A stretch of DNA of 64,000 bases from an uncultured Bacteroidales bacterium (GCA_902760965.1 CACWIN010000008.1:9454-73453); one strand, 5' to 3'; counted from the first letter of the stretch, positions 26,028 through 42,454 are shown. A program made the numbers and translations. The notes: a model not told the origin generated them from the letters alone.

Positions 26028-28970
26028 ATGAAAACTTTTGGAACAATGAAATATATCAGAATTGCTGTTCTAACCCTTATTCTTACTGTTTTGAACGGTT
26101 ACTCGTTTGCGCAGAATTCCCGTAATCAGAGAAATGCAAACCAAGGTAAAGAGTACTCCATTAGCGGCCGTATCATTGACGGCTCAAACGGAGGTCCCCT
26201 GGAACTTGTAAACATCACCTTTGAGAACAACTCATTCTGGGCAGTAAGTGACCTTGAAGGCAAGTTCAGCCTTAAACTCAGAAACGGAGAATACCATTAC
26301 GAGGTTTCATACATTGGTTATGAAACAGTTAAGGGCATCCTTAAAGTTGAAGGAAAAGACATCACCAACTTTAACATCAAGATGGCCGCCTCAAGCCTTG
26401 CGCTACAGGAAGTAACTGTAACAGCCAAGCAACAGGCCATGGGCTCTTCGTCAGTAATTGACCAGACTGCATTGCAGCATCTTCAGCCCAAGAGTGTTGA
26501 GGATATCTTACAGTTGATGCCAGGAAACCTGACTAAGAATCCTGATGTCAATTACATTGGCCAGACATACATCAGAGAAGTATCAGGAAGTAACAACAAT
26601 GCCATGGGAGCACTTGTCATGGTAGATGGCGCCCCCATATCAAATGATGCCATAATGCAGTCAATGTCAACGTCAAAATATCAAATTAACGATGACCCCA
26701 AATCATCTTCACAGAATACCACTGGCGCTGGAGTAGATTTGAGAACAATTTCTACCGATAACATTGAGAACATGGAGGTTATCCGTGGCATACCTTCAGT
26801 AGAATATGGAAACCTGACCTCAGGTGCCGTTCTTATTAAGACCAAGAAAGGTGCCACTCCTCTTGAAGTTAAAGGAAAAGTGGATCCCAACTCAAAAATG
26901 TTATATGCCGGAAAGGGATTTACTTTAAACACAGGTGGAACCGTAAATCTTGCATTGGATTATACCGAGTCATACAATGACGTCAGGTTTCAAGCAAAAG
27001 GTTTTGAGCGTATTACCGGTGATTTCGGTTATGGCAGGACCTTTTTTAAGCAATATCCCTTAAGTGTCAATCTCAAGGTCTCATATTTCCAGAATGTATA
27101 TGATGTCCGCGTGGATAAGCAGCAGCATAATTTTGAGGTAAACAAAAGTGAGAATCGCGGCGTCAGGGTTAATCTTAACGGAGACTGGAATGTCAAGCGG
27201 AAACTGTTGTCCAATTTAAGTTACAATTTTTCATACAACAACAGTGTACAGCGCGATTATAATTATGAGGAAGTGTTGCTTACCACGGGTGTAACACCTG
27301 TTGCAGTATCAACGGTTCCCGGAGAGTTCCGCTCATATATGCTTAACGGAACATACAACACCGAGTATACCATGAGTGGAAATCCGGTTGATATTTTTGC
27401 TCAACTCAAAGGAACCAAGACTGTATTTATCAATGAAGGCTTCACAACATCTTTCAAAGAAGGCATTGAATACAAATATGATGTCAATCATGGTAAAGGG
27501 CTTGAGTTTGACCCCAAGACTCCTCCTTTTGTAAGAAATGTCCAGACTGTGCGTCCTCGCCCATATACAGACATTCCCGCCATGCAGACTGCATCTGCAT
27601 TTATTGAGAACAAGACTATAATGCCTATCGGCAAAACAAGTTTAACTGCCCAGATCGGAATAAGAGCCAACAGACTGTTCATTGACAGGAAATATCTGGA
27701 TCGTAGCGACATGAATACCTTTGAGCCACGTTTTAATCTGGAATGGTCTTTCCTTAACTCAAAAAACTCAGCATTTGACAATGTCAGTTTCAGTGCCGGT
27801 TGGGGCATGACATCAAAAATGCCTCCATTGGTTTACCTGTATCCTGACAAAGTCTATTTTGATGAAAAATCATTTGCCTATGTAGCCCCCTCAATGATTA
27901 TGGATGAGAGTATCGCTATTATGACGACCGATGTCATAGAAAGCACCGCTAATCCGGATATCAAGCCTTCAACGGGCAGAAAAATGGAACTTGGACTCAA
28001 TTTTGAAATAAAGAAGATGTCTGGCAACGTAACATTCTTTATGGAGAATTATGAGAATGAGTTTACATATCGTTCAACCCCTTATACATTCTCATACAGA
28101 ACATATGAAGCACCTGTCGGCGCTACGAACTACAGATATGAGAACGGTACGCTAAAATGCGATTATGACAATGCCACCATTGATGTTCCCAGCAGGAATG
28201 ATTCTACTTTTCAATCTTACAGCATACCCACAAACGGTAATTCCACTCAAAAGATGGGTATTGAGTACAGTTTGAATTTAGGACAGATAAAAGCACTCAG
28301 GACATCAATAGTAATTGATGGTGCATGGTTGTGGGTAAAAAGAAGGAACGAACTTGGTGCATGGTCCATAATATCAGTTACAGACCCTGTTAATGACAGT
28401 CGTACTACACCTAAAAAAAATTATCCGTTCCAGGCATATTATCCTGCAGGTTCAGGATCAGTTGAGTCACGTGTCAACACTAACGTAAGGTTTATCACCC
28501 ATATTCCCAAACTGTCTCTGATATTCTCAACAACGGCACAAATCGTATGGAGTGAGACCAGCCAGAATATTTATCAGGATTCTGACGGAAATGACATTTG
28601 GTATATGGCTCCCAACCAGCAATCTTCTACAGGAGAACTGAGACCTCATTATGATCCCGTAGGATTCCGCGATTTTGCAGGCAATTATTATGAGTGGAAC
28701 ACAAACTACAGGAGTCTGACCAATTACAGACGTGAATTTGAGATGGTTCAGTCACAGACCTATCCTACATATTATGATAAAGAGTCTTATCCGACATCTG
28801 TGATTATCAATTTCCGTCTTACAAAACAGTTCTCTGACATATTTGAGATATCATTTATGGCAAACAATCTGTTTAACACCCAGCAACTCTACCGCTCGCC
28901 AATTAACGGTGGCTATACCAACCTGGCCATTCCGCAATATTTTGGAGCGGAGTTGAAGATAAAGATTTGA
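26028..28970 (+). CDS. TonB-dependent receptor (CarbopepD_reg + plug + barrel), first gene of the peptidase-rich locus
   Basis: The ORF opens at 25986, but the signal peptide (MKTFGTMKYIRIAVLTLILTVLNGYSFAQ) starts at 26028. A SGRIIDGSNGGPLELVNITF regulatory-like domain is followed by the plug (NMEVIRGIPSVEYGNLTSGAVLIKTKKG). No SusC/RagA-type partner SusD is present. Confidence 0.8.
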   Translation: MKTFGTMKYIRIAVLTLILTVLNGYSFAQNSRNQRNANQGKEYSISGRIIDGSNGGPLELVNITFENNSFWAVSDLEGKFSLKLRNGEYHYEVSYIGYETVKGILKVEGKDITNFNIKMAASSLALQEVTVTAKQQAMGSSSVIDQTALQHLQPKSVEDILQLMPGNLTKNPDVNYIGQTYIREVSGSNNNAMGALVMVDGAPISNDAIMQSMSTSKYQINDDPKSSSQNTTGAGVDLRTISTDNIENMEVIRGIPSVEYGNLTSGAVLIKTKKGATPLEVKGKVDPNSKMLYAGKGFTLNTGGTVNLALDYTESYNDVRFQAKGFERITGDFGYGRTFFKQYPLSVNLKVSYFQNVYDVRVDKQQHNFEVNKSENRGVRVNLNGDWNVKRKLLSNLSYNFSYNNSVQRDYNYEEVLLTTGVTPVAVSTVPGEFRSYMLNGTYNTEYTMSGNPVDIFAQLKGTKTVFINEGFTTSFKEGIEYKYDVNHGKGLEFDPKTPPFVRNVQTVRPRPYTDIPAMQTASAFIENKTIMPIGKTSLTAQIGIRANRLFIDRKYLDRSDMNTFEPRFNLEWSFLNSKNSAFDNVSFSAGWGMTSKMPPLVYLYPDKVYFDEKSFAYVAPSMIMDESIAIMTTDVIESTANPDIKPSTGRKMELGLNFEIKKMSGNVTFFMENYENEFTYRSTPYTFSYRTYEAPVGATNYRYENGTLKCDYDNATIDVPSRNDSTFQSYSIPTNGNSTQKMGIEYSLNLGQIKALRTSIVIDGAWLWVKRRNELGAWSIISVTDPVNDSRTTPKKNYPFQAYYPAGSGSVESRVNTNVRFITHIPKLSLIFSTTAQIVWSETSQNIYQDSDGNDIWYMAPNQQSSTGELRPHYDPVGFRDFAGNYYEWNTNYRSLTNYRREFEMVQSQTYPTYYDKESYPTSVIINFRLTKQFSDIFEISFMANNLFNTQQLYRSPINGGYTNLAIPQYFGAELKIKI

Positions 28971-29011
28971 TGTTCAATTTTTTTATTAACTTATCAACTA
29001 ATTAAAAAAAG

Positions 29012-30211
29012 ATGAAGAAGTTTTTATTTGTAGCCCTGGTTGCTGTATTTGCAGCATTCACGGCATGTAATGATGATGACAAGGAGGCACAGAAGTACCA
29101 GGTGACAGTAAAAATCACTTGTGACGAGGCTGAACTTTCATCAATGAGTTCAATTAAAGCCACTGCCGTTAGCGAATCAGGCTCAGTAACAACTGTTGAT
29201 GCACAGAATGGCGTTGCAATCCTGAAACTTGTAGCCGGCTCATACACAATTTCTGTTGTAGGAGATGCTGGCGCTTACAACTATGTAGGCTCCACCAGAT
29301 GCGTTGTTGCAGAGGCCGATGTTCCTAACCTGAAAGTATCTCTTATCAAATCAAAGCCTACTGGTAAGATTATCTTCAAAGAGGTATATTCAACAGGTGT
29401 AAAGAGTTTCTATTGGACTGACGGTTTCTATGAACTGTTTAACAACAGTGATGAGGTACAGTATCTTGACGGTATCATTATGGGTATTGTTCAGTGCGGT
29501 TACGGTGATGTCAGCAGTTGGGCTGATGATGAGGGCAATCTTCCTGACTACTATCCTATGGGTAACCATACCGTATTTTTCCCTGGTAGTGGAAACGAAT
29601 ATCCCGTTCAGCCCGGACAGAGCGTAGTTGTTGCAACCCGTGCCATAAACCATTCTGCACGTGAACTTGGAGAGAACGATTCTGTTTCTCCAGTGGATTT
29701 GAGTGCTGCAGATTGGGAAATATTCATCCCGACATCTGCTCAGGATACCGATAACCCGGATGTTCCTAACCTTGAGGTTGCTTATTCACAGTTCGGATTT
29801 GACTTTATGCCTGCTGTAAGCGGACAGGCTCTCATTCTTGCCAAACTTCCTGCTGATTCAACCATGGAAAGTTTTGTTGCAAATAATGCTCTGAAGCCCG
29901 AAGGTCAATACCGTGCAGCACTTTGCATTCCTTCAGAGTATGTAATTGACGCTGTTGACATTGTTTACTTCAATGAGGATCTTAAGAAGAGTAAGACAAT
30001 TCTTGATTTGGATGATTCAGGCTATACATACTATAGCGGTTCAGATGACGAGTGGACTGATCCTATGTATTGCGGTAAGAGCCTTCGCAGAAAGTGCGTA
30101 GGAGTCAGCAACGGCCGTGCATATTTCAAGGATACAAACAATTCATCTGATGACTTTATCCTTGGCGGACAGAAACCTGTTGTACGCAGAACATTTACAT
30201 CAGCTGATTAA
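29012..30211 (+). CDS. surface lipoprotein, DUF4876-like (Ig-like N-domain + lamin-tail-like domain)
   Basis: 399 aa with lipobox AAFTAC. The block IIFKEVYSTG...YELFNNSDEVQYLDG resembles the LTD-like core of DUF4876 proteins, which usually follow TonB receptors. This is recalled from memory and not verified. Confidence 0.45.
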   Translation: MKKFLFVALVAVFAAFTACNDDDKEAQKYQVTVKITCDEAELSSMSSIKATAVSESGSVTTVDAQNGVAILKLVAGSYTISVVGDAGAYNYVGSTRCVVAEADVPNLKVSLIKSKPTGKIIFKEVYSTGVKSFYWTDGFYELFNNSDEVQYLDGIIMGIVQCGYGDVSSWADDEGNLPDYYPMGNHTVFFPGSGNEYPVQPGQSVVVATRAINHSARELGENDSVSPVDLSAADWEIFIPTSAQDTDNPDVPNLEVAYSQFGFDFMPAVSGQALILAKLPADSTMESFVANNALKPEGQYRAALCIPSEYVIDAVDIVYFNEDLKKSKTILDLDDSGYTYYSGSDDEWTDPMYCGKSLRRKCVGVSNGRAYFKDTNNSSDDFILGGQKPVVRRTFTSAD

Positions 30212-30224
30212 TTGACTTATTATG

Positions 30225-30263
30225 CCGCAGAGCAGGAGTCTGCTCCTGCCCTGCGGTTTTATT
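30225..30263 (+). terminator. strong hairpin + T-tract inside the locus (terminator/attenuator)
   Basis: CCGCAG-A-GCAGGAG-TCTG-CTCCTGC-C-CTGCGG followed by TTTTATT, 14 nt after the stop of the DUF4876-like gene. Confidence 0.7.
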
Positions 30264-30299: not shown

Positions 30300-31904
30300 A
30301 TGAAAAAGCTTTCTACCGGATTATCACTGTTTGTAGTTGCATTAACTATGGCTACATTAACTCAAAAAGTTTCTGCCCAGGCAGAACGGAAGGTTGATCC
30401 TTGGTATCAGGATGGGCTTTTCATACATAATATCACATACGGTTCCATTAATCCCGCCAACATTGTCAACATCCCCTATTCCGGGCTTAATGACATTGTT
30501 GTATCATATTCAGGACAAAATGGAAAATACAGAGCATTTGACGATGGCGTGAAAACACGTTTGTTTGATGCCAATGTATTTGGTATCAGGAAATTTGAGA
30601 AACTCTCATTCAAGGGTAATATCAACTACTCCAATCACTATTCTGAGGACATGAGGTGGAATGCCACCGTTTTGACGTCAGAATTGAATCCGTTCCTTTT
30701 GGCTGACACTCTCAGGTATGATACCCTGACAAATGATGCAAGAACAGAATCATTTGTCATTGACGGTTCAGTTGCATATGACTTGAGCAACCGTCTGACA
30801 GTCGGAGTTTCAGCAAAATACACCGTTGCACATAAAGCCGACCAATCAGATCCCCGCATGAAGGCAAATGCAGCCAGAACAGCAATCATGCCCGGTATCA
30901 ATTGGAATGTGAACGGTACAATCACACTCGGCTTAGCCGGAATCGTTGAAATTTATCATGAAAATGATAAATCATCGGTTGAGGATAACATGATAGGCGA
31001 ACATAATAAGGTATATATATATAAAGGCCTTGGAGGCTATGAGGGCAAAGACGGTCTTGGCTATAACCGCAGGTATGACGGTCTGAAATTCGGAGGGTCT
31101 CTTAATTTTAATTTCTCTACCAACGGTTCATTTAAAAACTTTACTGAGTTCAAATTCGTTTCCAATTCTGAGAATGCTACAGACGGCGGAGATTCTTACA
31201 GTTACAAAGGCGGAGATTTCTCACAAACCACAATGGCTCTTAACAGCCGATTCGTGCTGGCCAGACCAAAAATTCAGCATAATCTTATAATTGAAGCCAG
31301 CATGGATAATTGTAAGGGGGAATGGTCCGTTCAAAAACAAGAGAGAGACGAATGGAAAATGATCAGGTATAATGTCACTTCAACTGAAACGATACATAAG
31401 GAGAATGACATGACTGCCGCACTGACATATAATGCAACATTCTTAAAGTCAGGCACGCCACACTTGTCTGTTTCAGCAACCGCAGCGTATAAGCAGGTTA
31501 GCGTAAAGCAGTTTCCTGATGAGAATCATGCAAAATATACCAAACTGAATGCCGGACTGGTCATCAATAAGAAATGGACTGCAAATAAGATGCGTTTCCT
31601 TACTGAAGTAAGTGGTGGAATGAATCATGCCCTTAAGCCTCTTGATATTTCAGTTTTAACAAATGAAGCGCCTTTAGAAAGATTTTATAAGGGATACTAT
31701 CTCCCCAAATACACATATCTTTCAGCCGAAGACTATTACGCATCCATACAGTTGGGAGCATCATATCCGCTTGCTCTTTTTTCAAGCAACGGATGGCTTA
31801 ATCTGACAGTTGATGCCTCTATCAGAAAGTATTCAGATAAAAGCCCAATTTTTAAGGATACTGACAAAAAGAATATAGGCCTGAAATTGAATTATACATT
31901 TTAA
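30300..31904 (+). CDS. outer-membrane beta-barrel protein (DUF6850-like)
   Basis: 534 aa with signal peptide ...TQKVSAQ and alternating strands. The C-terminus LKLNYTF ends in Phe, as in an OMP beta-signal. Confidence 0.55.
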   Translation: MKKLSTGLSLFVVALTMATLTQKVSAQAERKVDPWYQDGLFIHNITYGSINPANIVNIPYSGLNDIVVSYSGQNGKYRAFDDGVKTRLFDANVFGIRKFEKLSFKGNINYSNHYSEDMRWNATVLTSELNPFLLADTLRYDTLTNDARTESFVIDGSVAYDLSNRLTVGVSAKYTVAHKADQSDPRMKANAARTAIMPGINWNVNGTITLGLAGIVEIYHENDKSSVEDNMIGEHNKVYIYKGLGGYEGKDGLGYNRRYDGLKFGGSLNFNFSTNGSFKNFTEFKFVSNSENATDGGDSYSYKGGDFSQTTMALNSRFVLARPKIQHNLIIEASMDNCKGEWSVQKQERDEWKMIRYNVTSTETIHKENDMTAALTYNATFLKSGTPHLSVSATAAYKQVSVKQFPDENHAKYTKLNAGLVINKKWTANKMRFLTEVSGGMNHALKPLDISVLTNEAPLERFYKGYYLPKYTYLSAEDYYASIQLGASYPLALFSSNGWLNLTVDASIRKYSDKSPIFKDTDKKNIGLKLNYTF

Positions 31905-34084: not shown

Positions 34085-36076
34085 ATGAAAAAATGTGCAT
34101 TGATACTGACAATAGTAGCAGGAATCATGTTTTCGGCATGCACTCACAAGGTGCAATCAGGTTTAGCAGTAGTAATTGATCCAAAAAGTTACAATGAAGC
34201 CAAGGCTGAAATTGACCGCTATCTTGAAGTTGTTGAAAGCCGCGGTCTATACCCCATCCTTGTTATTGACCGCTGGGGTATCCCTGACAGCATACGTGAA
34301 GAACTTATAAGGCTTCACAACGACAAGGATCATCCGATTGAAGGTTGTGTCCTTATTGGAGACATACCGGTTCCGATGGTTCGTGACGCACAGCATATGG
34401 CAAGCGCATTCAAGATGGATCAGGACCGTTTTCCAAGGATTGAGTCACATATCCCGTCAGACCGTTTCTATGACTGCTTTGACCTTAAGTTTGACTATAT
34501 AGATCAGGATTCTTCACGCTGGTATTACTACAGTCTGCGTGCCGATTGTGCACAGAGACTTGCCCCAACCATATATTCAGCCCGTATTACACCGCGTGAC
34601 AATGAGCGTGGAGAACGTTATGAGAAACTGCGCCGTTACATGCAACGCGTGAATGAGGCTGACAGCAAGCAGAACAAACTGGACCGTGTATTGATGTTCG
34701 GCGGTGACGGAAACCTGTCCGGATCATTTGCAGCCCGCACGGATGCCAAAATGGAGTTTTACGAGCAGTTCCCATGGATGAGAGATCAGCAACTCTCTGT
34801 TGTTTATGTTGATTATACTCGTGACAAATTCATCAAAACACGTCTCACGGATGAACTTCAGGATCCGCGTACGGACTATGCCCTGCTCTCACATCATGGA
34901 GACCCCACTATTCAGTATCTGAGCGGCACAAGAGACCCGCGTGACATATTGCAGACATTTGAATTCAGTCATTATCATCCACAAACTCCCCTGGTCTCAC
35001 TTGACGCCTGCTACAACGGCTCTTTCCACCTGGATGACAACATTCAGGAGTCTTATCTGTTCGGTGAGGGTAACGGTACTCTGCTTGTACTTGCAAACAG
35101 TGTCAATGCCATTCAAGACAAATGGGTGAACCGCTATACAGGTCTTTTGGGATTGGGCATGCGTGCAGGATTCCTCTCCAAACTGGGTACATTCATGGAA
35201 TTTCACCTGTTTGGTGACCCCACCTACGCATTTGTCAAGTCTGCAGACTGCGGTTTTGATGTAAATGATGCCATTAATTATGCTCCTGACACATTCTGGT
35301 CAAAACAATTGAACAACCAGTATCCGGCCATACAAGGGTTGGCTACACACATGCTTGCATTGAACGGGCAACAATGGTCTGATGCAATATATCAGAAATT
35401 CATCACATCAGAGAGCAGCATTGTACGTCTGTCTTGCCTTATGGAGCTGGCTCCGTTCAGAGATGAGAACTTCATTAAGTGCGTAATTGCCTCATTGAAT
35501 GATGAGCATGAAATGACACAGCGCTTTGCTGTACTCTATGCAGGTAAAAGCGGTCATCCAGCCTTTGTAGAACCTATTTCACAGTTGCGTTGTGACAACA
35601 ACCTGAGTGAAAGGGTTGATTTTGACCTGGATAATGTGTTACGCAGTTTTGACTCCACGGCCGTTTACAATGCGGTTAATGCTTATCTGACAAAAGTCAA
35701 CTACCATGCAAATCCTGACAGTGTAATTAAGGCTATAAACGCAAACCTTGAGTATTATGCCGGACATCAGGCTTTTGACATTACAAAAGCTCTCAACAGC
35801 ACAAAAGCAAGCCAAAACAGTAAAATGAATGCTATCCACAGCATGCGTAACAATCCGCCTCACTACTACACTGATGCAATTCTGGAGTATCTGGGATCAT
35901 ATGCACCTGCTGAGGATTCTGTTATACAGCGTGCCACATGGGAAGCCATTGGTTGGTTCGATATGTCATACCGTGCACCGGATATTGCAGCACTTGCACT
36001 GAAGGTGTCACAAGACGGCAAATACCCTGTAACAGTTCGTAAAGAAGCACTTAAAACATATAATCGCACAAAATGA
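34085..36076 (+). CDS. paralog 2 of 4 (shortest; lacks the helical insert between His and Cys)
   Basis: 663 aa with lipobox IMFSAC. It has the same conserved blocks (SHHG ... LDACYNGSFH ... HLFGDPTYAF ... HEMTQRFAV). Only about 40 aa separate the His and Cys motifs. Confidence 0.55.
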   Translation: MKKCALILTIVAGIMFSACTHKVQSGLAVVIDPKSYNEAKAEIDRYLEVVESRGLYPILVIDRWGIPDSIREELIRLHNDKDHPIEGCVLIGDIPVPMVRDAQHMASAFKMDQDRFPRIESHIPSDRFYDCFDLKFDYIDQDSSRWYYYSLRADCAQRLAPTIYSARITPRDNERGERYEKLRRYMQRVNEADSKQNKLDRVLMFGGDGNLSGSFAARTDAKMEFYEQFPWMRDQQLSVVYVDYTRDKFIKTRLTDELQDPRTDYALLSHHGDPTIQYLSGTRDPRDILQTFEFSHYHPQTPLVSLDACYNGSFHLDDNIQESYLFGEGNGTLLVLANSVNAIQDKWVNRYTGLLGLGMRAGFLSKLGTFMEFHLFGDPTYAFVKSADCGFDVNDAINYAPDTFWSKQLNNQYPAIQGLATHMLALNGQQWSDAIYQKFITSESSIVRLSCLMELAPFRDENFIKCVIASLNDEHEMTQRFAVLYAGKSGHPAFVEPISQLRCDNNLSERVDFDLDNVLRSFDSTAVYNAVNAYLTKVNYHANPDSVIKAINANLEYYAGHQAFDITKALNSTKASQNSKMNAIHSMRNNPPHYYTDAILEYLGSYAPAEDSVIQRATWEAIGWFDMSYRAPDIAALALKVSQDGKYPVTVRKEALKTYNRTK

Positions 36077-38268
36077 TTTCATTAAAGAATTACATATTTG
36101 TCATTATTGCTTCAGTTTGTTTGTTTTCATGTTCCAATGCAAAAAGAGACGGTTTTGCAGTAGTTATTGACAAACAAAGTTACTCTGAGGCAAAAACTGA
36201 GATAGACGGCTATCTCAAGACAGTTGAGAAACGAGGACTCCACCCAATCCTTGTGATAGACCGCTGGGGTATTCCTGACAGCATACGCGCCGAACTGATA
36301 AGGCTATACAATGCAAAATCCAATCCTATAGAAGGATGTGTGTTCATTGGTGACATCCCAGTTGCCAAGGTACGTGACGCACAGTTCCTTACCAGCGCAT
36401 TCAAGATGGACCAGGGTGGCCGTAACGCAATGGCAGACTATTGCGTATCTACAGACCGTTTTTATGATTCATTTGACCTGGAGTGGGATTTCATTCAGCA
36501 GGATCCTGACCGGAAGGAATACTTTTATTATTCCCTGCGCAATGACTGCGCCCAGAAACTGCGTCCCACCATTTACAGCGCACGCATATTCCCGCGTACC
36601 AACGCCCGTGGCGACAAGTATGAAAAACTGCGTCGCTACATGCAGCGTGTAAACCAGGCCGATGCCAACAACAACCCCATTGACAACGTACTCTCATTTG
36701 GAGGTCACGGCAATGTATCGGACTCATGGGAGGCCCGTATGGACGAAAAGATTGAGATGTATGACCAGATGCCCTGGATGCGCCGTCAGCAGAAAGGCAT
36801 AATGTACATTGATTTCCGTCATGATGATTTCATAAAGGAGCGTCTTACCACCCAGCTGCAGATTCCTGAGCTGGATTATGCAGTTCTGCACCATCATGGC
36901 AGCGAGGAGGAGCAGCTGCTGTCAGGCTACCCCGTAACTTCATCCCTGCCCGTTGATATGGATAACGCCCGCCGTTATGCTCACTCACAGACACGCTCAT
37001 ACCTTAATCGCGGACGCACATTGGCCGAGGCTAAAAAGAGCATTGAGACATACTTGCGTTCACCCATCCCCGATGAATGGGTAAAAGAGGCCAACAACCC
37101 TGATGTGATTGCTGCCGATGAGGCTTACTCATATGCACAGGACCTGCATGTAGCCGAATTCAGCAACTTTCACCCTCAGGTCCGTATGGTATCGCTCGAT
37201 GCATGCTACAACGGCTCATTCCATGTAGACGAGAGCATCCAGGAGGCATATCTGTTTGGTCAGGGCAACGGTACCCTGATTGCCATAGCCAATACCGTTA
37301 ACTCAATTCAGGACCGCTGGATAAATCGTTATCTGGGTATGTTGGGTATGGGTTTGAGAGTGGGTTACGTTGCCGTGTTCAACAATACTCTTGAGAACCA
37401 TGTATTTGGTGATCCCACATTTGCTTTCACTCCTGCCGCAGATCCCGGTTTTGACGTTAACGAGGCCGTTAAGGACCATTCATCAAAATTCTGGAAAAAA
37501 CAGCTTGACAACCCCTATCCTGCCGTTCAGGTCCTGGCCTGCTATATGCTTGGCCAGAAATGTGACGGTAACTGGAACAGCCTGCTGCTTGACAAGTTCA
37601 AGACATCTCCATACGGCATGGTACGTCTGGCCGCACTGCTTGAGCTTGGCGAGAACCGCAGTGACGAGCTTGTTGAATGCATAAAACTTGGTATTAATGA
37701 CGGCAACGAGATGACTCAGCGCTTTGCTGTACTTCTGGCCGGAGACTGCGGTGACAAATCACTTGCCGAGACTCTGGTAAGACTCTATTGCGAGAACACA
37801 CAGCCGGACAGAGTCCGTTTTGACCTTACCAGCACTACCTTCAGATCATTTGATTCGGTATCGGTTGTATCAGCATTTGAAAGAGTGTTCCCCGAGTATA
37901 CATTCTACAACAACCCCGACAGTGTAGGAAACGTAATACGCCGTAATCTGATAAGCACTACCACATCAATGACCAGTGACTTTGACGAGGAGGTACTGTC
38001 AGACAAATATTCCGAAAAGAACCGCATATCAAACATACGCTCCATGCGCAACTACCCCGTTCACGAACTGGTTCCGGTAATGCTTAAGTATCTGTCCGAA
38101 CCTAAAGAACCGGCTATCCAGGAGGCAATGTGGGAGGCATTGGGTTGGTTTGAACTCTCATATCAGGCTCCGCTCATTGCAGCCAAAGCAAAGGACGTTA
38201 TGGATGACGAGCGTTATGACAAGGCGGTTCGCTACCAGGCACAAAGAGCATATAACAGACTTAAATGA
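36073..38268 (+). CDS. paralog 3 of 4
   Basis: 731 aa. Its start overlaps the paralog 2 stop (ATGA). Lipobox CLFSC, with HHHG ... LDACYNGSFH ... HVFGDPTFAF ... NEMTQRFAV. Confidence 0.55.
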   Translation: MISLKNYIFVIIASVCLFSCSNAKRDGFAVVIDKQSYSEAKTEIDGYLKTVEKRGLHPILVIDRWGIPDSIRAELIRLYNAKSNPIEGCVFIGDIPVAKVRDAQFLTSAFKMDQGGRNAMADYCVSTDRFYDSFDLEWDFIQQDPDRKEYFYYSLRNDCAQKLRPTIYSARIFPRTNARGDKYEKLRRYMQRVNQADANNNPIDNVLSFGGHGNVSDSWEARMDEKIEMYDQMPWMRRQQKGIMYIDFRHDDFIKERLTTQLQIPELDYAVLHHHGSEEEQLLSGYPVTSSLPVDMDNARRYAHSQTRSYLNRGRTLAEAKKSIETYLRSPIPDEWVKEANNPDVIAADEAYSYAQDLHVAEFSNFHPQVRMVSLDACYNGSFHVDESIQEAYLFGQGNGTLIAIANTVNSIQDRWINRYLGMLGMGLRVGYVAVFNNTLENHVFGDPTFAFTPAADPGFDVNEAVKDHSSKFWKKQLDNPYPAVQVLACYMLGQKCDGNWNSLLLDKFKTSPYGMVRLAALLELGENRSDELVECIKLGINDGNEMTQRFAVLLAGDCGDKSLAETLVRLYCENTQPDRVRFDLTSTTFRSFDSVSVVSAFERVFPEYTFYNNPDSVGNVIRRNLISTTTSMTSDFDEEVLSDKYSEKNRISNIRSMRNYPVHELVPVMLKYLSEPKEPAIQEAMWEALGWFELSYQAPLIAAKAKDVMDDERYDKAVRYQAQRAYNRLK

Positions 38269-38272
38269 CAAT

Positions 38273-40486
38273 ATGAACAGAATCAAATCTTTATATCATA
38301 GCATACTTGAAGCAGCAGGTTTGCTGCTCCTGGTATCTTGCGGCCAAACCAAACCCGGTTTTGCAATAATCATTGATCCTCAAAGCTACATTGAGGCTCA
38401 GGCAGAGATAAACCGTTATCTGGAGGTAGTTGAAAGCCGTGGTTTGCACCCGTTCCTGGTCATTGACAGTTGGGGAGTTCCGGACAGCATACGCGCAGAG
38501 CTGATGCGTCTGCACGCTGACCGCAGATATCCTATTGAGGGATGTGTGCTCATAGGCGATATCCCCGTAGCAATGGTTCGCGATGCGCAGCATTTTACTA
38601 CAGCGCTCAAGATGGACCAGTTCAATCCGTCGTTCAGCCGTAATGAATACTGTGTCCCTTCGGACCGTTTCTATGACTGTTTTGACCTTAAGTTTGACCT
38701 TATTGAACAGGATTCGGCCCGCAGTGAGTATTTCTTTTACTCACTTAGAGGCGACTGCCCGCAGCGTCTGCGCCCCACCATTTACAGTGCACGCATTATG
38801 CCGCGTGACAACGAGACCGGCAGCAAATATGACAAACTGCGCCGATACATGCAGCGCGTGAATGAGGCCGACAGTAACAACAACCCTCTGGACCGCATGT
38901 TCTACTTTAGCGGTGAAGGTTACATATCAGAATCGGTCGATGCACGTATTGACGAAAAGATAGAGTTGTATGACCAGTTCCCCTGGATGCGTACCCAGCA
39001 GCAGTCCATTGAGTATATAGACCACAAGAGGGAAAAGTTCGTAAAGAACCGCCTCATGCAGCAGATGCAGTACCGTGATGTGGATTTTGCCATACTCCAC
39101 CATCATGGAGCATTTGACACAGAGTACCTGAGCGTTTACCCCGAGGCCGAGACTATGATTGAGGATGTAGCCATGATGCGCCGCTTTATGCGTGAGCAGA
39201 TGCGCGAGGGCAACCGCAAGGGCATGAGCAAGCAGGAGGTGATGCGCCGCATCAACAACTACTTTGGCTGCGAGGTGCCCGAATCATGGTATAAGGGTGC
39301 ACTTGACCCTGAACAGATAGCCCGTGACGAGCAGGACGACATAGATGAGGAGAACAACATTAACCTGCATTTCTCCGATTTCACATACTATCACCCCCAG
39401 GTGCGCATGGTATCACTGGACGGTTGCTACAACGGATCTTTCCATCGTGACGAGAGCATTCAGGAGGGATACCTGTTTGGTAAGGGCAACGGTACCATAG
39501 TAGTTATGGCCAATACCGTAAACGTGCTGCAGGATAAATGGGCCGACCATTTTATAGGTCTTATGGGAATTGGAATGCGTGCCGGCCGTATGGCTCAGTT
39601 CGGAGCATTCATGGAGCAGCACATATTCGGTGACCCCACTTTCAGCTTTACACCTGCCGTGAAGACCGGTTTTGACGTGAATGACGCCATCAACAATGCC
39701 GATGACGGTTTCTGGAAGAAACAGCTCAAGAGCGGCAGCCCCGCCATGCAGATACTGGCACTTGATATGCTTGCCAACAGCAACACAAACTATTCTGACC
39801 TCATGGCCGATAAGTTCAAGACATCCAATTCCGGTATAGTACGTCTTGCCGCGCTCATGGAGCTGTCCGGCTACCGTGACGAGAACTTTGTGGAGTGTCT
39901 GGCCATGGCCCTTGATGACAGCCACGAAATGACTCAGCGCCTTGCAGTAAACATGGCTGGCCGCTCCGGTGACGAGCGCCTCATACCCGGACTGGTACGT
40001 ATTGCATCAAAGAACAACACCTCAGAGCGTATAGAATTTGACGTGACAAATGCGTTCCATACATTTGATTCCACTATGGTTCTCAATGAATTTGACCGAT
40101 ACTTCCCCACCGTGGACTGCTATCTTGACCATGACAGCATTGGAGGTCTTATCCGTAAAGCCTTGCACAGCTTTACCACATCAATCACCGATGAGGTAAA
40201 TACAAGGCTGTTTGACACCACGCTTACACAGACCCAGCGTAAAGCCGGCGCCCGTGCCCTGCGTAACAATCCCGTACACAGCATGATACCGCAGTTGCTT
40301 GAACTGCTTGACAATCCCGATGAGGATGACCTGATACTTACCGTACTGTGGGAGGCAATGGGTTGGTATGACCTGTCATACCGTGCCGATGAGATAGCTG
40401 CGGCCGCACTTAAGACCAGCACCGATGAGAGATTTTCCGAAAGAGTAAGAAATGAAGCACTAAAAACATACAACAGACTGCAATGA
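38273..40486 (+). CDS. paralog 4 of 4
   Basis: The ORF opens at 38150 inside paralog 3, but the lipoprotein signal MNRIKSLYHSILEAAGLLLLVSC begins at the ATG at 38273, 5 nt after the paralog 3 stop. It has HHHG ... LDGCYNGSFH ... HIFGDPTFSF ... HEMTQRLAV. Confidence 0.55.
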   Translation: MNRIKSLYHSILEAAGLLLLVSCGQTKPGFAIIIDPQSYIEAQAEINRYLEVVESRGLHPFLVIDSWGVPDSIRAELMRLHADRRYPIEGCVLIGDIPVAMVRDAQHFTTALKMDQFNPSFSRNEYCVPSDRFYDCFDLKFDLIEQDSARSEYFFYSLRGDCPQRLRPTIYSARIMPRDNETGSKYDKLRRYMQRVNEADSNNNPLDRMFYFSGEGYISESVDARIDEKIELYDQFPWMRTQQQSIEYIDHKREKFVKNRLMQQMQYRDVDFAILHHHGAFDTEYLSVYPEAETMIEDVAMMRRFMREQMREGNRKGMSKQEVMRRINNYFGCEVPESWYKGALDPEQIARDEQDDIDEENNINLHFSDFTYYHPQVRMVSLDGCYNGSFHRDESIQEGYLFGKGNGTIVVMANTVNVLQDKWADHFIGLMGIGMRAGRMAQFGAFMEQHIFGDPTFSFTPAVKTGFDVNDAINNADDGFWKKQLKSGSPAMQILALDMLANSNTNYSDLMADKFKTSNSGIVRLAALMELSGYRDENFVECLAMALDDSHEMTQRLAVNMAGRSGDERLIPGLVRIASKNNTSERIEFDVTNAFHTFDSTMVLNEFDRYFPTVDCYLDHDSIGGLIRKALHSFTTSITDEVNTRLFDTTLTQTQRKAGARALRNNPVHSMIPQLLELLDNPDEDDLILTVLWEAMGWYDLSYRADEIAAAALKTSTDERFSERVRNEALKTYNRLQ

Positions 40487-42057
40487 AAATATTATATAAG
40501 ATAATATTGTCTGCTCTATTTATTTGTCAGCCAGGAATAACGTATGCTCAGTTAGCCATACGTCCTGGTACCGTCTTGCCGGAGCTGGAACTGAAGAGTT
40601 CCCTTAAGTCTCCTGTAAGAAACGGTAATAATACTGATTTTCCGACATATATTGACAACTCTCTTTCGCCGTATTTCCCCGCCATTATTAATCAACATGG
40701 CGGTTCATGCGCACAAGCATCAGGGGTTCACTATCTTTTCACATATGAAATGAACAGAGTGTTGGAAAGAGAAGTCGCTTCAAATCCAAAAGAAAACACA
40801 TTCAGTTACCGTTATACATGGAATTTTCTCAATGAAGGAAAGGATAACGGGTCTCATGCCAGTGATGGTGTAAATCTGATATTGCATCACGGATGCGTTA
40901 CGGCAGCAGATTATGGAGATGAGGATGAATATGTTTACCGTTGGGTGACCGGATACTCCAAGTATTACAATGCCATGCATTATAAGGTAACTAAGGCAAG
41001 TTCCGTTAACCTGAAAGAACGTTCCGGTATTGAGAAACTGATGCAATATATGATTGACAAGGGTGATGGTCATCCTGGTGGAGGAATAGCATCATTTTCA
41101 TTAACCGGGAATTGGGATAAGACTAATTATGACGGACCATCAGAAGCCGGTATTGAATATATAATGGTACCAAGAGGAAGTGGCGGTTCTCATGCCATGA
41201 CACTTATCGGATATGATTTATCAGTAGAATTTGACTGCGATAACGATGGAAAAATAGATGATGATGAAAAAGGTGCCTTCATTTTTGTGAACAGTTGGGG
41301 AACATGGTGGGCAACCGGAGGAAAGGCATACATGCCTTTTTCAGGATTCACCAGAGAACTTGGAGATGGAGGATTTTACAAGTATGACTCACATGCCGAA
41401 GTCCTTTGTATAGAAACAGCCTATCATGAACCCACTTTGACTATGGAAATAAATATGACATATGATTCCAGAAATGATCTGACTCTAAGTATTGGAGTGG
41501 CAGATGGAATTCAGGAAAATACTCCAAAATATGCTGTATATCCTGTAATAGTCAAAGCTCAAGGCGGAGATTTGAGAATGCAAGGAACAAACTTTGATTC
41601 AGGAAAAACAATTGAAATGGGTTTTGACATCTCAGAACTTAAGTCGAAAGCAGATGAGATGAAAGCCCCCTGTTGGTTCTTTACAGTGTACAAAACGCAG
41701 TTAGGTAAAAACGGTACAGGAAAAGTGAATAAAATTGCAATACATGATTATAGTTCCGGACAAGATAATGTTATTTCTCAAACATTTATAAAATCAAATA
41801 CTATTCAAGTGGGCAGCAACAAATACAAGTTACCTACAAAAGAATGGTACATGGACAATAAAGGGAACTGGTTTAAAGTGGTTATGACACCTGCAAATAA
41901 ATATGTATCAAATTCAGATTATTTGAAAAAATTTGAATGGAATAAGATTTATGGTATCAGAAAGGCTAATGGAGGATATGCAAAAATTAAGTTTACTGAC
42001 TATAACCCCCAAACCGGCAAAGTGAAATTCTCAGTTAATAACTATGAATACAAATAG
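40483..42057 (+). CDS. secreted papain-like (C1 family) cysteine peptidase with extra C-terminal domain
   Basis: 524 aa with start overlapping the upstream stop (ATGA) and a signal peptide ending TYAQ. The catalytic triad context is present: NQHGGSCAQASG (Cys), GGSHAMTLIGYD (His) and FVNSWGTWW (Asn-Ser-Trp). Confidence 0.65.
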   Translation: MKILYKIILSALFICQPGITYAQLAIRPGTVLPELELKSSLKSPVRNGNNTDFPTYIDNSLSPYFPAIINQHGGSCAQASGVHYLFTYEMNRVLEREVASNPKENTFSYRYTWNFLNEGKDNGSHASDGVNLILHHGCVTAADYGDEDEYVYRWVTGYSKYYNAMHYKVTKASSVNLKERSGIEKLMQYMIDKGDGHPGGGIASFSLTGNWDKTNYDGPSEAGIEYIMVPRGSGGSHAMTLIGYDLSVEFDCDNDGKIDDDEKGAFIFVNSWGTWWATGGKAYMPFSGFTRELGDGGFYKYDSHAEVLCIETAYHEPTLTMEINMTYDSRNDLTLSIGVADGIQENTPKYAVYPVIVKAQGGDLRMQGTNFDSGKTIEMGFDISELKSKADEMKAPCWFFTVYKTQLGKNGTGKVNKIAIHDYSSGQDNVISQTFIKSNTIQVGSNKYKLPTKEWYMDNKGNWFKVVMTPANKYVSNSDYLKKFEWNKIYGIRKANGGYAKIKFTDYNPQTGKVKFSVNNYEYK

Positions 42058-42454
42058 ATATATAATAGTAATCCTGCTTTTTGTCATGTCGGCTTTTTTT
42101 GCATGCAAAAAAGAAAAAGATGAAAAGATTCCAGTTCAAACAACCAATGAAATGGAACTTACCCTTGAACCCGGGAAATGGGTTTATTACAGGTTCTCTG
42201 ACAGTACGGTGGTAGGGAAAAGCATCATAGGTAATTCTAACGATGACAAAGAATGGTATGACCGTATGGATTGGGACATAGCATTGAGCGAAAACGGCAT
42301 TCGCACCAACAGCGGAGAATCCGGTCGTGGTTATGGAGGCATCTGCTATATTGACAATGAAACATTTTATGAAGACTCATATAGTCATTTATCTTCAATT
42401 TATTATATGGTTGATACTCTAAATGTACCAATAGTGGTGCCTATTGACAGATAA
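42044..42454 (+). CDS. small lipoprotein with HmuY-like WDIA...NSG motif
   Basis: 136 aa with lipobox AFFAC, overlapping the upstream gene by 14 nt. The block MDWDIALSENGIRTNSGESG recalls the HmuY-family signature, but the protein is shorter than typical HmuY. Confidence 0.35.
   Translation: MNTNRYIIVILLFVMSAFFACKKEKDEKIPVQTTNEMELTLEPGKWVYYRFSDSTVVGKSIIGNSNDDKEWYDRMDWDIALSENGIRTNSGESGRGYGGICYIDNETFYEDSYSHLSSIYYMVDTLNVPIVVPIDR

What the first reader, a model, noticed from the sequence alone, without database searches (positions are those of the whole stretch)
26028..42454. 16-kb outer-membrane locus joining a TonB receptor module to two different cysteine-peptidase folds
Ten consecutive plus-strand genes are separated by -14 to +88 nt, and three junctions overlap (two ATGA, one 14-nt). 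Every product has a signal peptide or lipobox. In order they are: TonB-dependent receptor, DUF4876-like lipoprotein, beta-barrel OMP, four paralogous gingipain-like/HEAT lipoproteins, a papain-like peptidase and a small HmuY-like lipoprotein. There is no SusD partner, glycoside hydrolase, ABC or MFS importer, or local regulator, so this is not a canonical PUL. The only comparable logic I know is the dispersed Porphyromonas gingipain + HmuY + HmuR haem-harvesting scheme. Here the analogous parts would be physically fused into one operon-like block, with a quadruplicated and possibly non-catalytic C25-like component. I interpret it as a candidate surface proteolysis-coupled uptake machine for haem, a protein-bound cofactor or peptides. 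I do not recognise it as a described system.
Basis: partly seen in the sequence, partly recalled or inferred. Interest (0 to 1): 0.85.

Follow-up and report, generated by a model that had tools for sequence, protein, structure and literature searches.

The report
Conserved outer-membrane uptake cassette with two cysteine peptidases
This is a real, tightly packed operon found in hundreds of gut Bacteroidales species, joining a TonB-dependent outer-membrane transporter to two kinds of predicted active cysteine peptidase; it is probably switched on by iron shortage, and nobody has yet described it as a system.

Summary
The block is real, but it has nine genes, not ten. In order they are:
- T: a TonB-dependent receptor.
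- L: a DUF4876 'lid' lipoprotein.
- B: a DUF6850 barrel.
- H: four gingipain-fold + HEAT paralogs.
- P: a papain-fold peptidase.
- y: a small HmuY-like lipoprotein.

The order T-L-B-H(1-5)-P-y recurs in almost all of about 160 related loci from at least six Bacteroidales lineages. T-L-B-H is the core, and P-y is an accessory pair that is present or absent together.

- All 152 H copies examined keep the His/Cys dyad, so they look catalytic.
- H mostly lacks a lipid anchor or surface-export signal, so it is probably periplasmic.
- y is only the N-terminal ~60% of an HmuY fold. The C-terminal tail of P supplies the missing part, so I infer a split domain that tethers P to y. No haem-ligand residues are conserved.

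A palindrome (AATACC-N8-GGTATT) marks the cassette promoters in related loci. It also sits upstream of a flavodoxin gene and another TonB receptor gene. Published RNA-seq shows iron-limitation induction of the apparent B. thetaiotaomicron counterpart.

Best reading: an iron-starvation-induced transporter that uses proteolysis to free a protein-bound nutrient. The substrate is unknown.

The parts
25878..25897 (.). Weak match (TATAGTCAAAACTGGGTATT) to the palindromic operator AATACC-N8-GGTATT that marks the promoters of related cassettes
   Evidence: The PWM score is 10.7 bits. The 99th percentile of random 270-nt windows is 8.9 bits. Sites in related loci score 14-26 bits. In this window the match is marginal.
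25967..25974 (+). Candidate Bacteroidetes -7 promoter box TATTTTTG (TAnnTTTG), 53 nt before the g1 ATG
   Evidence: Read from the sequence. The TAnnTTTG consensus is from my own knowledge of Bacteroides promoters and was not tested here.
26028..28970 (+). g1 (T): TonB-dependent receptor, 980 aa, with an N-terminal CarboxypepD_reg-like domain, a plug, and about 710 aa of barrel after the plug
   Evidence: Pfam CarbopepD_reg_2 9.3e-17, Plug 3.3e-12, TonB_dep_Rec_b-barrel 1.4e-10. NCBIfam lists no SusC/RagA model for it.
29012..30211 (+). g2 (L): DUF4876 lipoprotein. Its lipobox is followed by CNDDDKE, an acidic surface-export-like signal. Putative lid of the receptor.
   Evidence: Pfam DUF4876 1.4e-36. 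PDB 4q1z E = 3.2e-24. 64 of 66 family members have a lipobox, with a mean of 1.95 acidic residues after the Cys. The lid role comes from Price et al., bioRxiv 10.1101/2023.03.17.533168.
30300..31904 (+). g3 (B): DUF6850 outer-membrane beta-barrel protein with an SPI signal peptide; always lies directly before the H genes
   Evidence: Pfam DUF6850 1.8e-66, covering profile positions 8-464 of 464. It has no solved relative by sequence. Its position is conserved.
31908..34067 (+). g4 (H1): gingipain-fold (C25-like) peptidase domain + HEAT solenoid; lipobox IISC, no acidic export signal
   Evidence: HEAT_2 hit. 52% identical to g6. The His/Cys dyad is kept.
34085..36076 (+). g5 (H2): short paralog (663 aa) that lacks the helical insert between the catalytic His and Cys
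   Evidence: Orthologues of this type pass the Pfam Peptidase_C25 gathering score (P0098, 32.4 bits against 23).
36073..38268 (+). g6 (H3): the paralog that was modelled. Residues ~27-460 have the gingipain-like fold, with H274-H275-G276 and C378. Residues ~470-731 form a HEAT solenoid.
   Evidence: AF2 model pLDDT 88.8. Foldseek top hit is RgpB 1cvr, E = 1.4e-7, probability 1.0, followed by alphaRep/HEAT proteins.
38273..40486 (+). g7 (H4): fourth paralog. The true start is the ATG at 38273 (MNRIKSL...), not the TTG at 38150.
   Evidence: Lipobox LVSC. Weak NblB-type HEAT hit, 9.7e-5.
40483..42057 (+). g8 (P): papain-fold cysteine peptidase (Q71, C76, H237, N270) with an SPI signal peptide, a middle beta-sandwich (~306-440) and a C-terminal tail
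   Evidence: AF2 pLDDT 88.5. Foldseek hits to xylellain, Cwp84, Der f 1 and cathepsins at E ~1e-7. The catalytic residues are invariant in 83 of 83. Homologues pass the Peptidase_C1 gathering score.
41800..42054 (+). Tail of g8 (residues ~440-524): the C-terminal third of an HmuY-like fold
   Evidence: It matches Pfam HmuY profile positions 92-149, and 115-157 in homologues. The tail profile aligns to residues ~150-212 of full-length HmuY-like proteins, i-E down to 2.6e-11. pLDDT is lower here, 57-86.
42044..42454 (+). g9 (y): 136-aa lipoprotein (FFAC|KKEKDEK) that makes up only the N-terminal ~60% of an HmuY-like fold
   Evidence: Pfam HmuY profile positions 4-49, 31 bits. PDB 8b6a E = 2e-7; HmuY 3h8t residues 25-94. 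The y profile aligns to residues ~1-135 of full-length relatives. 78 of 80 family members have a lipobox.

Best explanation
The block is a self-contained cassette for outer-membrane nutrient capture, probably induced by iron limitation.

**Shown**
- Nine co-oriented, translationally coupled genes encode a TonB-dependent receptor (T), a DUF4876 lipoprotein (L), a DUF6850 barrel (B), four C25-fold/HEAT proteins (H), a papain-fold protein (P) and a half-HmuY lipoprotein (y).
- The order T-L-B-H(n)-P-y is conserved across Bacteroidales.
- The catalytic residues of both peptidase families are invariant.

**Inferred**
1. T and its surface lid L bind and import the cargo, using TonB energy.
2. y is exported to the cell surface. 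It completes its beta-sandwich with the C-terminal tail of P and so tethers the papain-like peptidase next to the transporter. There P cuts a carrier protein or exposes the cargo.
3. The H proteins mostly lack a lipid anchor or surface-export signal, so they work in the periplasm, possibly docked to the barrel B. They grip the imported protein or peptide-bound cargo with the HEAT solenoid and cleave it with the gingipain-like domain. This releases iron, haem or another cofactor for a generic inner-membrane transporter encoded elsewhere.
4. H copy number (1 to 5) tunes the substrate range.
5. A trans-encoded regulator binds the AATACC-N8-GGTATT palindrome over the promoter and ties expression to iron status.

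The identity of the substrate is not established.
For: **Operon and conservation**
- establish the operon structure.
- T-L-B-H(n)-P-y is found in almost all 80 loci reached through P. At least 537 species genomes encode a P relative.
- T-L-B-H is found in every sufficiently long locus reached through H except L111. Searches agree.
- No other gene recurs next to the cassette.

**Catalytic competence**
- H275/G276/C378 are invariant in 152 of 152 H copies. Q71/C76/H237/N270 are invariant in 83 of 83 P proteins.
- The folds are supported, and by Pfam C25 and C1 hits above the gathering score in orthologues.

**Topology signals**
- L: 64 of 66 have a lipobox, with 1.95 acidic residues after the Cys.
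- y: 78 of 80 have a lipobox, with 1.49 acidic residues.
- H: 54 of 145 have a lipobox, with 0.37 acidic residues.
- P: mostly SPI-type signal.

**Split domain**
- The y profile and the P-tail profile cover adjacent, non-overlapping parts of the same full-length HmuY-like proteins.
- The two pieces are not homologous to each other.
- P and y are present or absent together.
- The commonest P-to-y spacing is -4 nt.
- Relatives of P carry a T9SS sorting domain in place of the tail. One of them, P0197, was checked and stands alone with no y beside it.

**Iron link**
- Literature.
- In a held-out set, 41 of 49 palindrome hits lie upstream of T, and 31 of 42 promoters carry it.
- Off-cassette hits lie upstream of a flavodoxin gene, another TonB receptor gene and a hemerythrin-LuxR regulator gene.
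- In L103 the cassette is followed by genes for ApbE and a PepSY_TM-flavodoxin-reductase fusion.

**Lid role of L:** Price et al..
Against: - No substrate is known. Price et al. saw no clear fitness phenotype for BT1939/BT1938 in any of their fitness experiments.
- I could not recover the B. thetaiotaomicron proteins. Equating BT1934-39 with this cassette therefore rests only on the matching list of annotations in PMC10434189.
- Induction in B. thetaiotaomicron is modest, 3.5-7.4x.
- The window's own promoter has only a marginal palindrome match, 10.7 bits.
- Localisation is inferred from signal sequences only.
- How P, which has no lipid anchor or T9SS domain, would cross the outer membrane is unexplained.
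- The y-P complementation is inferred from profile coordinates. It is not backed by a complex model or by coevolution analysis.
- No inner-membrane transporter belongs to the cassette.
- No conserved His or Met haem ligands are present in y or the P tail.
Confidence: 0.45

Rival explanations
1. It is a dedicated haem-harvesting machine of the Porphyromonas type. The peptidases degrade haemoproteins at the surface, the HmuY-like protein acts as a haemophore, and it hands haem to the receptor.
For: - y passes the Pfam HmuY gathering score and matches solved HmuY-family structures.
- The related T-L pair PG1019/PG1020 is induced together with hmu when haem or iron is scarce.
- Both peptidase folds resemble enzymes used for haemoglobin breakdown. 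That resemblance is from my own knowledge of gingipains.
Against: - y is only the N-terminal ~60% of the fold.
- No His or Met reaches even 40% conservation in y or in the P tail.
- The cassette has no hmuS/T/U/V-like genes.
- About a fifth of cassettes lack P-y altogether.
- H lacks surface-export signals.
Confidence: 0.15
2. It is a peptide or protein nutrient importer, functionally like RagAB with gingipains. It supplies amino acids or nitrogen and is unrelated to metal or cofactor acquisition.
For: - It has two endopeptidase families with intact active sites.
- The receptor has a long, SusC-sized barrel region, about 710 aa after the plug.
- H copy number expands in herbivore-gut lineages.
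Against: - There is an iron-limitation response in the literature.
- The operator is shared with the promoters of a flavodoxin gene and a TonB receptor gene.
- There is no SusD/RagB partner.
- Price et al. argue that lid-type, non-SusC transporters carry small substrates.
Confidence: 0.2
3. The peptidases do not attack a nutrient. Instead they process or assemble the transporter complex itself, in a sortase-like or maturase role comparable to PorU in the type IX secretion attachment complex. The barrel B would act as their membrane dock or as an exporter for lipoproteins without an export signal.
For: - B and H are always adjacent.
- H has the C25 fold. PorU is a C25-like sortase held by the barrel protein PorV; this is from my own knowledge and was not tested here.
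- In relatives of P (P0176, P0197), a T9SS sorting domain occupies the place of the tail, which points to an anchoring role for that position.
Against: - One to five diverged H paralogs, kept as orthologous sets, fit diversified substrates better than a single housekeeping processing step.
- No cleavage or sorting motif was identified in L, y or P.
- Many gut Bacteroides lack T9SS; this is from my own knowledge.
Confidence: 0.1
4. The adjacency is fortuitous: neighbouring but unrelated secreted-protein genes, not a functional unit.
For: No tool result supports this. No experimental operon data exist for this organism.
Against: - The same order is found in about 160 loci set in different genomic contexts.
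- The genes overlap or are only a few nt apart.
Confidence: 0.02

Closest known systems
TonB-dependent transporter + DUF4876 'lid' pairs of Bacteroides (BT1939/BT1938, BT3633/BT3632; Price et al., bioRxiv 10.1101/2023.03.17.533168)
   Same: It has the same two families in the same order, and the lipoprotein carries an acidic surface-export signal. The pairs co-localise in 81 genera, and AlphaFold-Multimer places the lipoprotein on the outer face of the receptor. BT1933-39 also lists a 'HEAT repeat domain-containing protein', which is the PGAP name of the H family.
   Different: That work treats only the T-L pair. The barrel, the C25/HEAT proteins, the papain-like protein and the half-HmuY lipoprotein are not discussed there. 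BT3633/32 sits in a different context, with PepSY and ABC genes.
Porphyromonas gingivalis PG1019 (DUF4876 lipoprotein) / PG1020 (TonB receptor)
   Same: It is the same T-L module. It is strongly induced by iron or haem limitation and is co-regulated with hmu (PMC10434189, PMC13096392).
   Different: It is described as an uncharacterised transport system. The published listing shows only hypothetical proteins beside it, with no HEAT, C1-like or HmuY-like genes named. I did not inspect that genome.
Hmu haem system plus gingipains of P. gingivalis (HmuY, HmuR, Kgp/Rgp)
   Same: It has the same kinds of parts: a TonB receptor, an HmuY-family lipoprotein and C25-fold cysteine peptidases. The logic is proteolysis feeding an outer-membrane receptor.
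   Different: - Here the parts lie in one operon.
- The HmuY fold is split between two proteins and has no conserved haem ligands.
- The C25-like proteins have no prodomain, Ig domain or T9SS tail; they carry a HEAT solenoid instead.
- Sequence similarity to gingipain is too low for a profile search of PDB sequences to detect.
- There is no hmuSTUV.
Fus ferredoxin-piracy system of Pectobacterium (FusA receptor, FusC periplasmic protease) - from my own knowledge, not tested here
   Same: A TonB-dependent receptor is paired with a dedicated protease that is predicted to act in the periplasm on an imported protein, releasing iron.
   Different: There is no homology. FusC is an M16 metalloprotease. 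Fus includes its own TonB homologue and an ABC transporter, and it has no lid lipoprotein.
SusC/SusD-type utilisation loci, including the peptide importer RagAB
   Same: It has the Bacteroidetes receptor with an N-terminal CarboxypepD_reg-like domain, a long barrel and a surface lipoprotein partner, and the degradative enzymes are encoded in the same locus.
   Different: NCBIfam lists no SusC-family model for the receptor, and there is no SusD/RagB, no glycoside hydrolase and no local sensor.

Membership tests
Canonical PUL (SusC/SusD locus) | SusC-family TonB-dependent transporter | tested here: not met
   For g1, the NCBIfam scan at E <= 0.01 returns only weak, sub-threshold hits to a siderophore-receptor subfamily and one other receptor model. 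No SusC/RagA model is listed.
Canonical PUL (SusC/SusD locus) | Adjacent SusD-like lipoprotein, plus glycan-degrading enzymes and a local sensor or regulator | tested here: not met
   The gene after the receptor is DUF4876, not SusD. No glycoside hydrolase or regulator lies in the block or its flanks. None recurs in related loci.
TBDT + DUF4876 lid pair (Price et al. 2023) | Non-SusC TonB receptor directly followed on the same strand by a DUF4876 lipoprotein with a surface-export signal | tested here: met
   g1 and g2 are 41 nt apart. DUF4876 E = 1.4e-36. The lipobox is followed by CNDDDKE.
Peptidase family C25 (gingipain-like, clan CD) | Caspase-like alpha/beta fold of the gingipain catalytic domain | tested here: met
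   RgpB 1cvr is the top Foldseek hit for the g6 model: E = 1.4e-7, probability 1.0, 486 aligned columns.
Peptidase family C25 (gingipain-like, clan CD) | Sequence match to the Pfam Peptidase_C25 model | tested here: inconclusive
   None of the four window paralogs hits Peptidase_C25 at E <= 0.01. 11 of the 34 family members in alignment A2 hit it at E <= 0.1. Homologues P0098, P0071, P0092, P0105 and P0102 score 26.7-32.4 bits against a gathering cut-off of 23. A family profile finds no gingipain among PDB sequences.
Peptidase family C25 (gingipain-like, clan CD) | Conserved catalytic His (His-Gly) and Cys after consecutive beta-strands | tested here: met
   H275-G276 and C378 are invariant in 152 of 152 copies. 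They follow strands E269-273 and E372-376 in the model. Residue-by-residue superposition on RgpB His211/Cys244 could not be done with these tools.
Gingipains proper (Rgp/Kgp) | N-terminal prodomain, Ig-like domain and T9SS C-terminal sorting domain | tested here: not met
   The fold starts directly after the lipobox, and a HEAT solenoid follows the catalytic domain. Neither the Pfam scan of the window paralogs nor the scan of 34 family members lists Por_Secre_tail.
Peptidase family C1 (papain-like) | Papain fold with the Gln-Cys-His-Asn catalytic set | tested here: met
   Foldseek hits to xylellain, Cwp84, Der f 1 and cathepsins at E ~1e-7, probability 1.0. Q71, C76, H237 and N270 are invariant in 83 of 83. 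g8 itself gives no Pfam C1 hit, but homologues pass the gathering score (P0187, 32.2 bits against 20.7).
HmuY haemophore family | Complete HmuY beta-sandwich domain in one polypeptide | tested here: not met
   y covers Pfam profile positions 4-49 and residues 25-94 of HmuY 3h8t. In full-length relatives the y profile ends near residue 135 of about 215.
HmuY haemophore family | Conserved axial haem ligands (His/His in HmuY, Met in some homologues; ligand identities from my own knowledge) | tested here: not met
   No His or Met reaches 40% conservation in y residues 22-136 or in P residues 440-524.
Hmu operon | hmuR plus hmuS/T/U/V accessory genes | tested here: not met
   No such genes lie in the block or its flanks. 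None recurs in related loci.
Cobalamin transporters of Bacteroides (BtuB/BtuG) | Cobalamin riboswitch leader and a BtuG beta-propeller lipoprotein | tested here: not met
   There is no Rfam match at gathering score in 25000-43500. There is no BtuG-like hit.
Fus-type protein import with a periplasmic protease | Homology to FusA/FusC, plus experimental import of an intact protein | not testable with these tools
   This is a functional analogy only. The peptidases here are cysteine peptidases, not M16 metalloproteases.

The most novel reading that the evidence does not exclude
Gut Bacteroidales share a widespread, previously unrecognised 'protein piracy' system. A TonB-dependent receptor with a DUF4876 lid imports a protein-bound iron or tetrapyrrole cargo. 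Periplasmic gingipain-fold peptidases, fused to bilin-lyase-type HEAT solenoids, strip the cofactor from its carrier. A papain-fold peptidase is held at the surface by a new anchoring device: an HmuY fold split between the enzyme's tail and a separate lipoprotein. The whole cassette belongs to a conserved iron-starvation regulon defined by the AATACC-N8-GGTATT operator.
Probability: 0.22. Interest if true: 0.85.

Novelty: new variant of a known kind. Interest (0 to 1): 0.66.

Why it matters
Non-SusC TonB transporters of gut Bacteroidales are largely uncharacterised, and how these anaerobes obtain iron in the gut is only partly known. It spans Bacteroidaceae, Prevotellaceae, Rikenellaceae, Muribaculaceae, Barnesiellaceae and other lineages.

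If the cassette couples proteolysis to TonB-dependent uptake under iron starvation, three things follow:
- It would define a major nutrient-acquisition route of the gut microbiota.
- It would give functions to three DUF-level families (DUF4876, DUF6850 and the 'HEAT repeat domain-containing protein' family).
- It would add two new subfamilies of cysteine peptidases.

The split HmuY fold is a concrete, testable example of anchoring a secreted enzyme by fold complementation. The promoter palindrome offers a handle on the still poorly defined iron regulon of Bacteroidales.

Tried and rejected
1. **Recovering the B. thetaiotaomicron counterpart.** I tried to recover BT1936 so as to verify the BT1934-39 gene content directly. 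The third homologue search, seeded from a Bacteroides sp. H protein, listed no B. thetaiotaomicron entry among its best 120. The held supplement of PMC10434189 has no per-gene table. The link therefore rests on matching annotation strings.
2. **Sequence-level tie to gingipain.** A profile of the H N-terminal domain finds no C25 entry among PDB sequences. Only the fold search and Pfam hits in orthologues support the assignment.
3. **Solved relatives by sequence.** g8 has none, its C-terminal half has none, and g3 has only chance hits.
4. **Are y and the P tail two copies of one domain?** hhalign gives a probability of 0.15%, so I rejected this in favour of complementary halves.
5. **Further conserved neighbours** (regulator, inner-membrane transporter, TonB/ExbBD). 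Clustering of 996 flanking ORFs found only local synteny.
6. **Riboswitch or other RNA leader.** None was found.
7. **Sigma-70-type promoter and terminator scan.** Not informative for this organism.
8. **Recent tandem duplication as the origin of the four paralogs.** Rejected. The paralogs are only 50-52% identical to g6, and the same four types occur in the same order in at least five other species genomes.
9. **E. coli-type Fur box.** None is evident by eye in the upstream region. The conserved palindrome is a different sequence.

Full report
**1. What is in the sequence**

Between 26028 and 42454 there are nine consecutive plus-strand ORFs. With the seventh gene started at its ATG (38273, MNRIKSL...), the gaps are 41, 88, 3, 17, -4, 4, -4 and -14 nt. 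I read the two ATGA overlaps and the 14-nt overlap directly from the sequence.

All nine products begin with a secretion signal:
- g1, g3 and g8 have SPI-type signals ending in AQ.
- g2, g4, g5, g6, g7 and g9 have a lipobox cysteine.

The flanks are housekeeping genes: MurB, PheS, endonuclease III and serine dehydratase upstream, and a hexapeptide transferase, PGK and a TPR protein downstream. There is no SusD, glycoside hydrolase, importer or regulator nearby. A TAnnTTTG-type -7 box (TATTTTTG, 25967-25974) lies 53 nt before the first ATG. No Rfam family matches the region.

**2. Identity of the parts**

- **g1 (T)** is a TonB-dependent receptor with an N-terminal CarboxypepD_reg-like domain, a plug and a long barrel. 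NCBIfam lists no SusC model for it.
- **g2 (L)** is a DUF4876 lipoprotein (E = 1.4e-36). It is related to the solved 'putative lipoprotein' 4q1z.
- **g3 (B)** is a full-length DUF6850 barrel (E = 1.8e-66).
- **g4-g7 (H)** are paralogs 50-52% identical to g6. Pfam sees only HEAT_2 in them.
  - An AlphaFold2 model of g6 (pLDDT 88.8) has gingipain R (RgpB, 1cvr) as its best PDB match: E = 1.4e-7, probability 1.0, 486 columns. HEAT/alphaRep solenoids match the C-terminal ~260 residues.
  - At sequence level the link to C25 is thin. None of the four window proteins hits Peptidase_C25. 11 of 34 family members do, and several homologues score above the gathering cut-off. A family profile finds no gingipain among PDB sequences.
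- **g8 (P)** models well (pLDDT 88.5). It matches xylellain, Cwp84, mite allergens and cathepsins. Homologues pass the Peptidase_C1 gathering score.
- **g9 (y)** passes the HmuY gathering score, but only over profile positions 4-49.

**3. Are the peptidases active?**

I collected 152 H copies and 83 P proteins from related loci.
- In H, His275, Gly276 and Cys378 are invariant in 152 of 152. They sit right after consecutive strands in the model.
- In P, Gln71, Cys76, His237 and Asn270 are invariant in 83 of 83.

The HEAT domain also has invariant charged residues (R518, D543, E546, R550, R580, W692, R729). This points to a fixed binding surface.

**4. Do the genes travel together?**

Yes, very strongly.
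- **Starting from P.** The 80 best loci show T-L-B-H(1-5)-P-y in almost every case that is long enough. The lineages include Bacteroidaceae, Prevotellaceae, Alistipes, Muribaculaceae, Coprobacter, Cryptobacteroides and Tidjanibacter.
- **Starting from H.** Four look-ups and 79 metagenome loci give T-L-B directly before H in every locus that is long enough, with one exception (L111, see section 9). P-y follows in most. About ten loci end after H.

The layers are therefore T-L (already noted in 81 genera by Price et al.), then T-L-B-H, then the accessory pair P-y. P and y are always present or absent together.

H copy number in 66 complete loci is two in 41, one in 18, four in 5, three in 1 and none in 1. 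The window's four types recur in the same order in other species. This is an old, lineage-specific expansion in herbivore-gut Bacteroidaceae, not a recent duplication. No other gene family recurs next to the cassette.

**5. Where the proteins probably sit (inference from signals)**

Across the loci:

| Family | With lipobox | Acidic residues in the six positions after the Cys |
|---|---|---|
| L | 64 of 66 | 1.95 |
| y | 78 of 80 | 1.49 |
| H | 54 of 145 | 0.37 |

- The L and y pattern is the one associated with export of Bacteroidetes lipoproteins to the cell surface (as used in Price et al.).
- Most H proteins have a plain signal peptide. This fits a periplasmic location better than a surface one.
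- P has a plain signal peptide.

**6. A split HmuY fold**

y matches only the N-terminal part of HmuY-family structures (8b6a, 3h8t residues 25-94). The last ~80 residues of P match the C-terminal part of the Pfam HmuY model.

I searched 1.84 billion representative proteins with y. I then aligned both profiles to the full-length HmuY-like proteins recovered.
- In single-domain relatives of 200-230 aa (for example P0479, P0378, P0400), y covers residues ~1-135.
- The P tail covers residues ~150-212, with i-E down to 2.6e-11.
- The two never overlap.
- The lengths, ~115 aa plus ~75 aa, add up to one domain.

Further observations fit a split domain:
- The two pieces are not homologous to each other (hhalign probability 0.15%).
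- The tail is the least confident part of the P model.
- The commonest P-to-y spacing is -4 nt.
- Relatives of P carry a type IX secretion sorting domain exactly where the tail would be. One of them, P0197, was checked and stands alone with no y beside it.

I infer that y and the tail of P assemble into one beta-sandwich, so that the lipoprotein tethers the peptidase. This is an inference. No His or Met is conserved even at 40% in y or in the tail, so the canonical haem-ligand arrangement is absent.

**7. Regulation**

While reading the upstream regions of related cassettes I noticed a palindrome, AATACCTATT|AATAGGTATT.
- A weight matrix built from 11 sites finds 17 hits of at least 14 bits in 1.56 Mb. 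Fifteen of them lie just upstream of T.
- In the independent metagenome set, 41 of 49 hits lie within 450 nt upstream of T, and 31 of 42 promoters carry the site.
- The few off-cassette hits sit upstream of a flavodoxin gene, another TonB-dependent receptor gene, a hemerythrin-LuxR regulator gene and the enolase gene.

Flavodoxin and TonB receptors are classic iron-starvation genes, and flavodoxin is among the most induced genes in PMC10434189.

Published data agree:
- BT1933-39 is listed as transposase, hypothetical proteins, HEAT repeat protein, DUF4876 protein and TonB receptor. It rises 3.5-7.4-fold on iron depletion, and PG1019-22 rises 20-214-fold.
- A 2026 paper still calls PG1019/PG1020 an uncharacterised transport system that is induced without haem.

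The window's own promoter has only a marginal match, 10.7 bits at 25878.

**8. Interpretation**

The best-supported reading is an iron-limitation-responsive TonB transporter cassette in which proteolysis frees a protein-bound nutrient.
- T and L capture and import the cargo at the surface.
- P, tethered by y, cuts outside the cell.
- The H proteins process imported material in the periplasm, with their HEAT solenoids as the gripping part.
- The released cofactor then uses a transporter encoded elsewhere.

The closest functional analogy for the periplasmic step is the Fus ferredoxin system (my own knowledge).

The substrate is unknown. Rival readings remain open: a haem-specific system, a peptide-nutrition system, or peptidases that mature the complex as PorU does. 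They are scored in the Rival explanations section of this report. Price et al. saw no clear fitness phenotype for BT1939/BT1938 in any of their fitness experiments. The inducing condition or the substrate was probably missing from that panel.

**9. Novelty**

The T-L pair and its iron response are in the literature. The whole cassette, the two peptidase families, their invariant active sites, the split HmuY fold and the operator are not in any paper I could find. I file it as a new variant of a known kind: a TonB-dependent uptake locus with dedicated degradative enzymes. It is widespread and testable.

**Limits**
- I could not confirm the B. thetaiotaomicron gene content directly.
- Localisation and the y-P complex are inferred.
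- Catalytic residues were not superposed on RgpB.
- The barrel B could not be modelled.
- One marine H homologue (L111) sits outside any cassette, so the H family is not strictly confined to this context.

Noticed in passing
Related loci, e.g. L081:1782-1801, L084:494-513, L017:1974-1993 and 2005-2024, L001:4009-4028, L022:1807-1826, L121:271-290; window 25878-25897 (weak): A conserved 20-bp palindrome, AATACC-N8-GGTATT, lies 20-170 nt upstream of the receptor gene in cassettes from several Bacteroidales families. It lies over or just upstream of the promoter -33 region. The transcription factor is unknown, and the sequence is not the E. coli Fur box.
   Followed up: yes
L165:3009 (before flavodoxin gene 3118-3624), L039:18848 (before TonB receptor gene 16360-18789, minus strand), L137:16750 (before hemerythrin-LuxR gene 15674-16636, minus strand), L153:10915 (before enolase gene): The few occurrences of the palindrome outside cassettes sit in front of genes typical of iron-starvation regulons, with enolase as an odd one out. 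The motif may therefore define the Bacteroidales iron regulon.
   Followed up: partly
L103:12255-15473: In one P-y-less cassette, the H gene is followed by an ApbE gene and a convergent gene for a PepSY_TM-flavodoxin-NAD-binding reductase fusion. This looks like a ferric or siderophore reductase and is another iron-related neighbour.
   Followed up: partly
L111:10001-12166 (contig labelled marine metagenome): An H-family protein (721 aa, plain signal peptide) has no T, L, B, P or y nearby. It sits next to what look, from their N-terminal sequences, like an RND efflux operon and a LysR-type regulator, after an 833-aa secreted protein. It may be an occurrence of the family outside Bacteroidales.
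   Followed up: no
L087:5613-12172 and L143:5551-12115: These cassettes have three H paralogs but no P-y pair. H expansion and the presence of P-y are therefore independent.
   Followed up: partly
L016:425-8222: The only complete cassette seen without any H gene (T-L-B-P-y), in an uncultured Bacteroides sp.
   Followed up: no
Proteins P0359 (1182 aa), P0461, P0464, P0495 and others: Many proteins of 370-1180 aa carry two or three tandem HmuY-like units. Each unit has the y-type part followed by the tail-type part. The HmuY fold is thus widely reused as a module beyond haemophores.
   Followed up: no
window 26001-32000 and 40001-42000 versus 32001-40000 and the flanks: G+C is 0.40-0.42 over T-L-B and over P-y, 0.45-0.50 over the four H genes, and ~0.49 in the flanks. 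This is a compositional mosaic within one operon.
   Followed up: no
window 41560-41583 (g8 residues 360-368, QGGDLRMQG): The motif Q-G-G-D-x-x-M-x-G in the middle beta-sandwich of P is nearly invariant: G361, G362 and G368 in 83 of 83, and M366 in 80 of 83. Its role is unknown.
   Followed up: no
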